From the UHGV virus genome UHGV-1833545: DNA of 10,664 nucleotides; one strand, written 5' to 3'. This document shows, in pieces, positions 3,001-6,000 of the stretch. Every line of letters begins with the position of its first letter. The first letter of the stretch is position 1. Position numbers: made by a program. Source of the DNA: a virus.

Positions 3001-6000
3001 CCGGAACAGCGGCGCGCGTCATCCGCACCATACAGAGGCGCTGGCATAATGGGAGCCTTATCTTCAGTAATCAGAAAGGAGGGTAATCGTTCTGGCTGTA
3101 ACCATAATCATCTGCATGATTCTGGCTTACGTTTTTAGAGCGATTGTCTTTATCTTTGAGGCTGGCAACCATGTTGGAGATAGTTTCTGGTTGCTTGCCT
3201 TCCGCCTTTTCTTTAAGGGTTTGACCTGTTTTTGCAATAAACGGGATGCGTATTTCCATCTGGTAGCTGTCTGCGCCAGTCTTTTTGTTTGTGGTTAATA
3301 CTTTCTGGAGCACTAACCCGATTTTCTTTCCATGAAATTCAGGAGCAACAAATTTACTGGCGGAAACCATATGTTGCGTTAATTGTCCAATCCCGGCACA
3401 CCCCATCATGGCGTGAACGACATTTGCGCCAAATTTGTTTTCCGTTCCGTCATTTTTCTGAACACAGACGCTAAGATATTGGATTTTACGTCCGTCGTCT
3501 GATTCGCCAGAAAACTCAATAAATTTGGCTCCTTTTTCTGATTGCTTTAGTTCTGCTTCAGTAATGGTAATGATATGAGCGCCAGTTTCGTTAATAAAAC
3601 CACCTTGCCCTGCGGTCAGAGCTGCTTCTTCGTTATAAGTAAAAATCACGTTGCTCATGCGGCGTTTTCCTTAATTTGATGAACATTATTGATGCCGTAG
3701 TAATCACAAACAGTGGCATCGACGAAAGAGAGATCGTTATCAATCTCATTGGAGTCAAACATTCCCATTGGGGATTTAACAGTGTCTGCACCGTTGTTTT
3801 TCGTGGTGAAAAAGAACTGGTCATCACGGGTAAGGGTGCGAAGAACTATAGTAAACATGCCTTCGACAGTGATTTTTTCGTCCAGCATTTTGCCGATAGT
3901 CTTCATTTTCACGCGCCCCATAGGGGTTTCTTCGGTGTGTGCAAGAAAATAGACTCTCAGGTCATCAGGTGCATCCTGTGCAGCCTTAATCACCTCCCAT
4001 GCGTGGCGGCCTATCTCAGTAAATTTATCAAACGATTTTTCTTCTGAGCGGCGCATAAACTCATTGCTCATCACATACTGGAAGTCATCAACAATAACGA
4101 TTCTTTTCCCGTATTCGTGAGCACGCTTAATTACGGCAACTATTACGTCCCATTTGTCAGTGGTAACTACGGTTCCTTTTTTTGCTCTGGCATCCCATGC
4201 CATTCTTTTGATTTAAATGGTAGCGGCTTGCCTATTGGTTTTATAAGTATTGCTTCCTCTGGATTGATATTTCTCATGCTGGTTGATTTTCCGGTGCCAG
4301 ATTCACCGAGTATTAATGTTGCAGTTCCCATAATTTTCCTCAGAATGGTAATTCGGATGGGGATGAAAGAAACTTGCGCTCATTCATGCGCTCTCTTTGC
4401 GCCTGCCATAAGCAAAGTTGTTTCTTTGATTTATCTCCCGCTTTACGCCAGTAACGAGCCTCAGCAATGTGATACTCTCTTTTTAATCGACTTAACTCTG
4501 GAGTTTTCGCCAGCTCTACCGGAATCATTTTGACCTCCATTTTCTGTAGGCTTCGACGGCCTCACGAAACATCTTTTCATCGCCAATAAAAGTGGCGATA
4601 GTGAATTTAGTCTGGATAGCCATAAGTGTTTTATCCATTTTTGGGAACTCCTGGCTGATTAAGTACGTCGATGAGTCGTTTCCATCCGTCACGTAATTTG
4701 CGGGTGATTCGTTCAAGTAAAGATTCGGAAGGGCAGCCAGCAACAGGCCACCCTGCAATGGCATATTGCATGGTGTGCTCCTTATTTATACATAACGAAA
4801 AACGCCTCGAGTGAAGCGTTATTGGTATGCATATAAAAAGGCCCTCACACTGGAGGGCAAAGAAGATTTCCAATAATCAGAACAAGTCGGCTCCTGTTTA
4901 GTTACGAGCGACATTGCTCCGTGTATTCACTCGTTGGAATGAATACACAGTGCAGTGTTTATTCTGTTATTTATGCCAAAAATAAAGGCCACTATCAGGC
5001 AGCTTTGTTGTTCTGTTAACCAAGTTCTCTGGCAATCATTGCCGTCGTTCGTATTGCCCATTTATCGACATATTTCCCATCTTCCATTACAGGAAACATT
5101 TCTTCAGGCTTAACCATGCATTCCGATTGCAGCTTGCATCCATTGCATCGCTTGAATTGTCCACACCATTGATTTTTATCAATAGTCGTAGTCATACGGA
5201 TAGTCCTGGTATTGTTCCATCACATCCTGCGGATGCTCTTCGAACTCTTCAAATTCTTCTTCCATATATCACCTCAAATAAGTGGTTTGCTGCCTAATTT
5301 CATTTTCTGGCGACCAACACAAGTCACACCCATTTCACTGCGTGGCTTGCTGTACCATGTGCGCTGATTCTTGCGCTCAATACGTTGCAGGTTGCTTTCA
5401 ATCTGTTCGTGGTATTCAGCCAGCACTGTAAGGTCTATCGGATTCAGTGCGCTTTCTACTCGTGATTTCGGTTTGCGATTCAGCGAGAGAATAGGGCGGT
5501 TAACTGGTTTTGCGCTTACCCCAACCAACAGGGGATTTGCTGCTTTCCATTGAGCCTGTTTCTCTGCGCGACGTTCGCGGCGGCGTGTTTGTGCATCCAT
5601 CTGGATTCTCCTGTCAGTTAGCTTTGAGTAACGCTCCGTGATGCTTATCTCCACGGTTGCTGTCTTGCAGCTGCATTTCGCGCTACTCAAAGCCTTCTGC
5701 TTTGAATGCTGCCCTTCTTCAGGGCTAAATTTTTAAGAGCATCACCTTCATGGTGGTTAGTACGTCCTGCTGATGGCTAAATAGTACGATTTGTACTTTA
5801 TAGAGTCAATACAAAATGTTCTAAATATAATTAGTTTTTTATAACGCTTTGTATTTAATGGGTTTATATTTTGGAAAAAGAAAACCCGACGCTAAGGTCG
5901 GGTTATTGTTGTGTGTTTTAGAGTTGTGAGGCTGTTAACTAAATGTCTCTTCAGGCCACTGGCTGGCGATAACTTTCCCTACTACGGAACAGCTATCATT

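What the first reader, a model, noticed from the sequence alone, without database searches (positions are those of the whole stretch)
3071..4331. Sak4 plus SSB-like recombination module replaces lambda Red in an otherwise lambda-like pL operon
N, orf28, ral, cIII and kil are lambda-like, but where lambda has gam/bet/exo this element has a 62-aa unknown ORF, a Sak4-type P-loop ATPase and an SSB-like protein. The kil-like C-terminus diverges from lambda, marking a mosaic junction near 4525..4560.
Basis: partly seen in the sequence, partly recalled or inferred. Interest (0 to 1): 0.45.

Follow-up and report, generated by a model that had tools for sequence, protein, structure and literature searches.

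The report
HK620-type Sak4/SSB module, sak4 broken
This is the already characterised recombination gene set of coliphage HK620 (hkaM, sak4, ssb, abc2) sitting in a lambda-like prophage where lambda carries gam/bet/exo, and here the sak4 recombinase gene is broken by a 4-base deletion, so the finding is correct but ordinary.

Summary
On the minus strand, 3071..3658 encodes a 195-aa protein that is 192/195 identical to the HK620 SSB (HkaK). 3655..4331 is the HK620 sak4 gene (hkaL), split into a 54-aa ORF and a 182-aa ORF.

The split comes from loss of one unit of a TGGCTGGC tandem repeat, after window 4198. Putting the 4 bases back gives a protein 226/226 identical to HK620 Sak4.

The whole stretch 2950..4900 is 98% identical in DNA to HK620. 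The module is hkaM, sak4, ssb and abc2 (2754..4528).

DNA homology to lambda begins at window 4536, which corresponds to lambda 33228 at the start of gam. This confirms the proposed mosaic junction.

Hutinet et al. 2018 showed that HK620 Sak4 is an ATP-dependent single-strand annealing protein. Its activity is stimulated by this SSB through the SSB's NDYPPF tail, and that tail is intact here.

The deletion allele is absent from 154 E. coli genomes and 60 phage records that carry the gene. It does recur in a second metagenome assembly. It is therefore probably a real loss-of-function allele rather than a read error.

Novelty: already known. Interest: low.

The parts
3655..4331 (-). sak4 (HK620 hkaL) pseudogene, a RecA-core-only single-strand annealing ATPase. 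It reads as two ORFs, 4167..4331 (54 aa) and 3655..4203 (182 aa).
   Evidence: PHROG 2872 E 6.9e-108; AAA_24 30.0 bits (gathering score 27); 226/226 identical to HK620 Sak4 after the 4 bases are restored.
4199..4202 (-). The surviving unit of the tandem repeat. HK620 and the BY63 prophage have TGGCTGGC on the coding strand and the window has TGGC, a 4-bp deletion that shifts the frame by -1.
   Evidence: Alignments. The same lesion is present in a second assembly, L031.
4284..4307 (-). Walker A motif GESGTGKS (Sak4 residues 9-16), in the 54-aa N-terminal fragment.
   Evidence: Read directly from the translation.
4084..4101 (-). Walker B-like motif IVIVDD, in the 182-aa C-terminal fragment. The frameshift therefore separates it from Walker A.
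   Evidence: Read directly from the translation.
4176..4182 (-). A_AAA_AAG heptamer. It is in zero-frame phase only in the mutant reading frame (CAA AAA AAG GAA CCG TAG), and a -1 slip here would return the ribosome to the original Sak4 frame.
   Evidence: Read directly. No significant downstream structure (z -0.22). The link to frame rescue is speculative only.
3071..3658 (-). ssb (HK620 hkaK), the cognate phage SSB. It is intact and overlaps the sak4 stop by 4 nt.
   Evidence: PHROG 743 E 8.6e-66; 192/195 identical to HkaK.
3074..3091 (-). C-terminal tail NDYPPF of the SSB, the six residues needed to stimulate Sak4 in HK620.
   Evidence: Translation; functional role from PMC5928155.
4340..4528 (-). 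hkaM, a 62-aa orphan gene of the HK620 Rec module with unknown function.
   Evidence: 60/62 identical to HK620 HkaM. (PHROG 1723, labelled 'recombinase' without any test). PMC5928155 calls it an orphan.
2754..3047 (-). abc2, the P22-type anti-RecBCD protein. It is the fourth gene of the module and the functional counterpart of lambda gam.
   Evidence: PF11043, E 5.6e-63; PHROG 656; 94 of 97 residues identical to HK620 Abc2.
4525..4638 (-). kil (37 aa, HK620 type). The mosaic junction with lambda lies at 4535/4536, inside its 3' end.
   Evidence: lambda homology runs from 4536..4830 to lambda 33228..33522.

Best explanation
The region is the HK620-type homologous-recombination ('Rec') module of a lambdoid prophage. 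It is transcribed leftward from pL, downstream of N, ral, cIII and kil, in the order hkaM, sak4, ssb, abc2.

In the intact module the steps are as follows. Abc2 modifies host RecBCD so that DNA ends are resected rather than destroyed. The phage SSB coats the single strand. Sak4, a RecA-core-only ATPase, is recruited to SSB-covered ssDNA through the SSB tail NDYPPF and anneals complementary strands in an ATP-dependent way. This is the job done by Gam, Exo and Beta in lambda.

In this particular prophage sak4 has lost one unit of a TGGC TGGC tandem repeat, most simply by replication slippage. Translation now stops after 54 residues, and Walker A and Walker B lie on different ORFs. The annealase is therefore most likely inactive, while ssb, abc2 and hkaM remain intact.

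What was shown here: gene identity, gene order, the lesion and the junction. What is taken from the literature on the identical or near-identical HK620 proteins: the biochemical activities. What is inferred: the loss of function and the slippage origin.
For: - 98.0% nucleotide identity to phage HK620 over window 2950..4900, with the HK620 annotation hkaK/hkaL/hkaM/kil/cIII.
- Protein identities to HK620: Sak4 226/226 after repair, SSB 192/195, HkaM 60/62, Abc2 94 of 97, Kil 36/37.
- Profile hits: PHROG 2872 Sak4-like (E 6.9e-108), PHROG 743 SSB (E 8.6e-66), Pfam Anti-RecBCD_p2 (E 5.6e-63), Pfam AAA_24 above its gathering score.
- The 4-bp deletion is seen against both HK620 and an E. coli BY63 prophage.
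- All 5 base substitutions in sak4 relative to HK620 are synonymous. The gene was therefore under purifying selection until recently.
- The deletion allele was found in none of 154 E. coli complete genomes and none of 60 phage records that match the site; all of these carry the extra 4 bases. It was also absent from GTDB species representatives and from IMG/VR, whereas the intact allele has 9 exact IMG/VR matches.
- The same deletion occurs in a second metagenome assembly, L031, which has 2 SNPs and an intact integrase.
- Biochemistry and genetics of HK620 Sak4 and its SSB are in PMC5928155. The classification of the HK620 Rec module among lambdoid phages is in PMC12315714.
Against: - The window's contig has only about 2.9x coverage (record name). 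An assembly error cannot be excluded from the sequence alone.
- It is not known whether the two assemblies that carry the deletion come from independent samples.
- Loss of function was not tested. A -1 slip at the in-phase A_AAA_AAG heptamer, or complementation between the two fragments, could leave residual activity.
- Pfam gives no hit at all for the SSB, although the literature assigns it to DUF669.
- Its fold could not be checked here: the single-sequence model has pLDDT 39.5.
Confidence: 0.85

Rival explanations
1. The frameshift is a sequencing or assembly artefact, and the real prophage carries an intact sak4 identical in protein to the HK620 gene.
For: The contig has about 2.9x coverage. 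The same contig carries a second frame-breaking indel, +1 A at window 596 in the integrase. That indel is absent from the near-identical assembly L031 and from BY63, so at least one indel on this contig may be an error.
Against: The identical 4-bp deletion is present in a second assembly made under another ENA accession (L031). It is not a homopolymer-length error. It removes exactly one unit of a 2-unit tandem repeat, which is the signature of replication slippage.
Confidence: 0.1
2. The broken gene is still expressed as a near full-length Sak4 by -1 ribosomal frameshifting. The deletion has put the pre-existing A7G run into phase as A_AAA_AAG, the dnaX-type slippery heptamer, three codons before the new stop. 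A -1 slip would give ...KEW-HGMPEQKK-GTVV... in place of ...KEW-LAWDARAKK-GTVV....
For: The heptamer is in the correct phase and a -1 shift restores the original frame (sequence). A_AA.A_AA.G is among the most shift-prone heptamers in E. coli (PMC4066793).
Against: - Without stimulators this motif shifts at only about 0.3%, and at most about 3.7% in the best 3' context (PMC4066793).
- The downstream RNA has no structure beyond chance (z -0.22).
- The arrangement is not conserved: every other copy found has the intact frame.
- The product would carry 8 residues in place of 9 just after the P-loop helix, with untested consequences.
Confidence: 0.04
3. The P-loop ATPase is not a recombinase but belongs to another NTPase family, such as a DnaC-like helicase loader, a KAP NTPase or a defence ATPase.
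For: The Pfam scores are only just at threshold (AAA_24 30.0 bits against 27; AAA_22 27.0 against 27). There are weak P-loop-only hits to ABC_tran, AAA_29 and RsgA.
Against: The full-length PHROG 2872 Sak4-like match has E 6.9e-108. The repaired protein is 100% identical to HK620 Sak4, for which ATP-dependent ssDNA binding, annealing and recombineering were measured (PMC5928155). No DnaC or KAP hits appeared. The gene sits between ssb and abc2 in a Rec module.
Confidence: 0.01

Closest known systems
Phage HK620 Rec module hkaM-sak4(hkaL)-ssb(hkaK)-abc2(hkaJ) (Clark et al. 2001 annotation, NC_002730; Hutinet et al. 2018, PMC5928155)
   Same: Same four genes in the same order and orientation, downstream of kil and cIII. 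98% DNA identity. Sak4 has the identical protein sequence once repaired. The SSB is 192/195 identical and keeps the NDYPPF tail.
   Different: sak4 carries a 4-bp deletion here and reads as two ORFs. The surrounding genes (N, ral, the C-terminal domain of cI, cII) are lambda-type rather than HK620-type. Abc2 is 97 aa instead of 98.
Lambda Red system (gam-bet-exo)
   Same: Same position in the pL operon, immediately downstream of kil, and the same overall task: protecting or processing DNA ends and annealing single strands.
   Different: There is no sequence homology left of window 4536. The annealase is a RecA-like ATPase rather than a Rad52-like Beta. There is no dedicated exonuclease. RecBCD is modified by Abc2 rather than blocked by Gam. 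An SSB is part of the module.
Phage P22 recombination module arf-erf-abc1-abc2
   Same: A four-gene layout ending in a homologous abc2 (Pfam PF11043, E 5.6e-63).
   Different: The positions of erf and abc1 are taken by the unrelated sak4 and ssb, and hkaM is unrelated to arf (PMC5928155).
Sak4 family of Lopes et al. 2010 (Pfam AAA_24; lactococcal phage phi31-type Sak4; RadB-like Rad51 paralogues)
   Same: A core-only RecA/Rad51-like P-loop ATPase of about 220 aa, often found next to a phage ssb.
   Different: It is distant in sequence from the Firmicute-phage members: PHROG 124 gives only E 1.3e-05, and AAA_24 is just above threshold.

Membership tests
Sak4 (RecA-core-only phage annealase; PHROG 2872, Pfam AAA_24) | Full-length match to the family profiles | tested here: met
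   PHROG 2872 E 6.9e-108 over residues 1-219 of 219 (using an approximate repair). AAA_24 scores 30.0 bits against a gathering score of 27 with the correct repair. 226/226 identical to HK620 Sak4.
Sak4 (RecA-core-only phage annealase; PHROG 2872, Pfam AAA_24) | Walker A and Walker B motifs on one polypeptide of about 226 aa (an intact gene) | tested here: not met
   Both motifs are present (GESGTGKS, IVIVDD). A 4-bp deletion places them on separate ORFs of 54 and 182 aa. The locus is a sak4 pseudogene, not a working member.
Sak4 (RecA-core-only phage annealase; PHROG 2872, Pfam AAA_24) | ATP-dependent ssDNA binding and annealing, and recombineering activity | not testable with these tools
   Shown for the HK620 protein, whose sequence is identical after repair (PMC5928155).
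Sak4 (RecA-core-only phage annealase; PHROG 2872, Pfam AAA_24) | RecA-like core fold without the RecA C-terminal domain | not tested
   No PDB relative was found by sequence.
HK620-type phage SSB (HkaK; PHROG 743; 'SSB-2' in PMC12315714) | Sequence similarity to HkaK and its family profile | tested here: met
   192/195 identical. PHROG 743 E 8.6e-66.
HK620-type phage SSB (HkaK; PHROG 743; 'SSB-2' in PMC12315714) | C-terminal tail NDYPPF, required to stimulate Sak4 | tested here: met
   The last six residues are NDYPPF. Their role is described in PMC5928155.
HK620-type phage SSB (HkaK; PHROG 743; 'SSB-2' in PMC12315714) | Gene adjacent to sak4 | tested here: met
   The ssb start overlaps the sak4 stop by 4 nt at 3655..3658.
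HK620-type phage SSB (HkaK; PHROG 743; 'SSB-2' in PMC12315714) | Match to Pfam DUF669, as stated in the literature | tested here: not met
   No Pfam family was reported even at E <= 10. The literature link was probably made by profile-profile comparison.
HK620-type phage SSB (HkaK; PHROG 743; 'SSB-2' in PMC12315714) | ssDNA-binding fold | tested here: inconclusive
   The single-sequence AlphaFold model has mean pLDDT 39.5 and is unusable. There are no meaningful PDB sequence hits.
Abc2 anti-RecBCD (Pfam PF11043) | Full-length profile match | tested here: met
   PF11043 E 5.6e-63 over residues 1-97 of 97. PHROG 656 E 7.7e-55.
Lambda Red (Gam, Beta/RecT, Exo/YqaJ) | Homology to gam, bet or exo at this position | tested here: not met
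   blastn against lambda 27500-41500 gives no match left of window 4536. None of the ORFs hit Gam, RecT or YqaJ in Pfam or PHROG.
Programmed -1 ribosomal frameshift site | Slippery heptamer in phase, plus conservation of the two-frame arrangement, plus a stimulator | tested here: not met
   The heptamer A_AAA_AAG is in phase. However, the two-frame arrangement is absent from all other copies, and the downstream fold is no better than shuffled sequence.

The most novel reading that the evidence does not exclude
The 4-bp deletion did not simply kill sak4. By chance it placed the A7G run in phase as the dnaX-type slippery heptamer A_AAA_AAG, three codons before the new stop. A small fraction of ribosomes would then slip -1 and make a near full-length Sak4 variant, giving a naturally 'leaky' recombinase allele that persists in a gut E. 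coli lineage.
Probability: 0.04. Interest if true: 0.3.

Novelty: already known. Interest (0 to 1): 0.08.

Why it matters
It matters little beyond correct annotation. The module is the one characterised in phage HK620, and its swapping with lambda Red at the kil/gam boundary is a textbook case of lambdoid mosaicism. A recent survey already catalogues it among Rec module types (PMC12315714).

The only local point of interest is a natural loss-of-function allele of sak4, with ssb and abc2 left intact, seen in two metagenome assemblies. This fits the gradual decay of prophage recombination functions. It is also a reminder that gene callers will report this locus as two 'hypothetical' ORFs.

Tried and rejected
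1. My first repair added one A to the A7 run. Alignment to HK620 showed the A7 run is unchanged and the real lesion is a 4-bp deletion 16 nt upstream, so I rejected that repair.

2. A 19-mer scan of metagenome contigs for the deletion allele returned 17 loci. None has any homology to the region, so they are chance matches.

3. Exact-pattern scans for the deletion allele in GTDB species representatives and in IMG/VR found nothing.

4. PDB sequence searches for Sak4 and the SSB found nothing meaningful.

5. A single-sequence AlphaFold model of the SSB was unusable (pLDDT 39.5). I did not spend a full-database homologue search to improve it, because 98.5% identity to a biochemically characterised protein already settles the function.

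6. Folding the RNA downstream of the heptamer showed no frameshift stimulator.

7. I considered phase variation and rejected it. The repeat has only two units in the intact gene, and the deletion allele is absent from the 154 E. coli genomes and 60 phage records matching the site and from IMG/VR, recurring only in one near-identical metagenome assembly (L031).

Full report
**What is in the sequence.** The window is the early region of a lambdoid prophage.

On the minus strand, running from pL leftward, it carries these genes:
- a lambda-type N (PF11438)
- ral (PF11058)
- cIII, 4631..4771
- kil, 4525..4638
- a 62-aa ORF, 4340..4528
- a P-loop ORF of 54 aa, 4167..4331
- an overlapping 182-aa ORF, 3655..4203
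- a 195-aa ORF, 3071..3658
- abc2, 2754..3047 (PF11043, E 5.6e-63)
- a DUF5405 gene, a 234-aa ORF of unknown function, a TraR/DksA zinc-finger gene, an excisionase and an integrase

The features are real genes, not chance ORFs.

**Identity of the two genes.** The 54-aa and 182-aa ORFs are two pieces of one gene. Alignment with phage HK620 hkaL and with a prophage of E. coli BY63 shows the cause. The window lacks 4 bases, one unit of the coding-strand tandem repeat TGGC TGGC; on the plus strand, GCCA is missing after window 4198.

My first guess was a missing A in the A7 run at 4177..4183. That was wrong, because the A7 run is identical in HK620.

With the 4 bases restored, the protein is 226/226 identical to HK620 Sak4. 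The five base substitutions between the two genes are all synonymous.

The repaired protein matches PHROG 2872 'Sak4-like ssDNA annealing protein' from end to end (E 6.9e-108). It passes the Pfam AAA_24 gathering score (30.0 bits against 27). No DnaC-like or KAP family appears among the hits.

The 195-aa protein matches PHROG 743 'single strand DNA binding protein' (E 8.6e-66). It is 192/195 identical to HK620 HkaK and ends in NDYPPF. Pfam gives no hit for it at all.

**The module and its context.** Window 2950..4900 is 98.0% identical in DNA to HK620 and HK629. It is 96-97% identical to many Stx-converting phages.

HK620 annotates the same order: hkaJ (abc2), hkaK, hkaL, hkaM, kil, cIII. The module is thus four genes spanning 2754..4528.

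Comparison with lambda 27500..41500 shows 94-98% DNA identity from window 4536 rightward through kil, cIII, ral/orf28 and N, the C-terminal half of cI, and cII. There is no homology at all to the left of 4536. Window 4536 corresponds to lambda 33228, five bases inside the gam start codon region. This confirms the proposed mosaic junction (4525..4560) and places it at the kil/gam boundary. Kil is the 37-aa HK620 form (36/37 identical).

**How it works.** This section rests on the literature about the same proteins. Hutinet et al. 2018 (PMC5928155) purified HK620 Sak4 and HkaK and found the following:
- It supports oligonucleotide recombineering in vivo.
- The recombineering and annealing activities are strongly stimulated by the neighbouring SSB.
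- Removing the last six SSB residues (NDYPPF) lowers recombineering about tenfold and abolishes Sak4 binding to SSB-covered ssDNA.
- hkaM is an orphan, and it was not needed for the stimulation.
- Abc2 is the P22-type RecBCD modifier.

A 2025 survey of lambdoid Rec modules lists HK620 as the prototype of this module type (PMC12315714). The mechanism I propose for the intact module is taken directly from these papers and applied by sequence identity. It was not tested here.

**Status of sak4 in this element.** The deletion stops translation after 54 residues. Walker A (GESGTGKS, 4284..4307) and Walker B (IVIVDD, 4084..4101) end up on different ORFs, so the annealase is most likely inactive. This is an inference.

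Is the lesion real? A 71-nt probe across the site matched 154 E. coli complete genomes and 60 phage records. All matches fell at 90-95% identity, and in every row listed the match spans 75 nt. They therefore carry the extra 4 bases, and none has the deletion.

Exact-pattern scans found no copy of the deletion allele in GTDB species representatives or IMG/VR. The intact allele has 9 exact IMG/VR matches. Seventeen metagenome hits to a 19-mer were chance matches with no homology to the region.

A look-up of the 54-aa product found two contigs. One is the window's own source, ENA ERZ772887 NODE_1731 (14.6 kb, coverage about 2.9), which is identical over all 10,664 bases. The other is ERZ28663478 scaffold_4150 (sample SAMEA2737735). 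It differs from the window over 4,895 bases by two SNPs and one indel, and it has the same 4-bp deletion.

The deletion is therefore probably a genuine allele produced by slippage on the 2-unit repeat. I could not establish whether the two assemblies are independent samples.

The all-synonymous divergence from HK620 indicates the gene was under selection until shortly before the deletion.

**A speculative side point.** In the mutant frame the codons read CAA AAA AAG GAA CCG TAG. This puts A_AAA_AAG, the dnaX-type slippery heptamer, in phase. A -1 slip there would return to the original Sak4 frame.

According to Sharma et al. 2014 (PMC4066793), this heptamer shifts at about 0.3% without stimulators and at most about 3.7% in the best 3' context. 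The downstream RNA folds no better than shuffled sequence (z -0.22). No other copy of the gene has the two-frame arrangement. I regard this as a coincidence with at most a trace effect.

**Verdict.** The finding is an already described and experimentally characterised module at 98% identity to its prototype. It is present in at least 154 of 5,426 complete E. coli genomes. The exchange of Rec modules at this junction is a known feature of lambdoid phages.

The only thing particular to this window is that sak4 is a recent pseudogene. Interest is low.

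Noticed in passing
window 596 (integrase, ORFs 3..659 and 589..1263, minus strand): The integrase is split by a 1-bp insertion: an extra A in CCGT[A]GACG relative to the BY63 prophage, whose integrase is 419 aa. The near-identical assembly L031 has the intact 419-aa gene. This indel is therefore private to the 2.9x-coverage contig and may be an assembly error rather than prophage decay.
   Followed up: partly
window 4830/4831, 5290/5299, 5912/5941 (against lambda): Relative to lambda, the pL and immunity regions lack ea10 (lambda 33523-33922), sieB (34382-35061) and rexA/rexB. The C-terminal domain of cI (5941..6345) is 94% identical to lambda, while its N-terminal DNA-binding part and cro are unrelated to lambda. 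cII (6928..7330) is 98% lambda-like. The immunity region is thus itself a mosaic.
   Followed up: partly
window 8047..8201, inside the O-like replication gene 7632..8579: There is a cluster of direct repeats with 12-nt spacing (units such as CCGCACATGAAG/CCGCACAAACAA), which encodes a repetitive AHEAAQTTAH... stretch. It looks like origin iterons embedded in the O gene, as in lambda. O is followed by a DnaB-type helicase (8576..9952) rather than a lambda P gene.
   Followed up: no
window 10031..10642 (+): An HNH_3 plus AP2-domain endonuclease gene lies in a sharply AT-rich stretch (GC 0.34-0.39 against about 0.5 in its neighbours), just after the helicase gene. It is probably an inserted homing-endonuclease-type gene. 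Only some related prophages have it.
   Followed up: no
window 2750..3000 (abc2) compared with L002 (BY63) and L031: Sixty of the roughly 100 differences from the BY63 prophage across window 1..4830 fall within these 250 bases, together with a 3-bp in-frame indel (97 against 98 aa). This suggests a second recombination patch inside abc2. Both SNPs that separate the window from L031 (2874, 3021) also lie in abc2.
   Followed up: no
L030 10665..13638 (beyond the window's left end): On the source contig the prophage is integrated next to DUF72, MAPEG and two methyltransferase genes, and a DUF72 gene likewise flanks the integrase of the related BY63 prophage. This indicates an E. coli-type chromosomal attachment site.
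   Followed up: no
window 5016..5195 (ral) compared with L002 5900..5997: ral is intact here (59 aa, PF11058, E 4e-44) but is annotated as a frameshifted pseudogene in the otherwise closest complete-genome relative, BY63. Different accessory genes are being lost in different copies of this prophage family.
   Followed up: no
window 4340..4528 (hkaM): PHROG 1723 labels this 62-aa protein 'recombinase'. The only experimental paper calls it an orphan of unknown function that was not needed for Sak4 stimulation. The PHROG label appears to be annotation by neighbourhood.
   Followed up: partly
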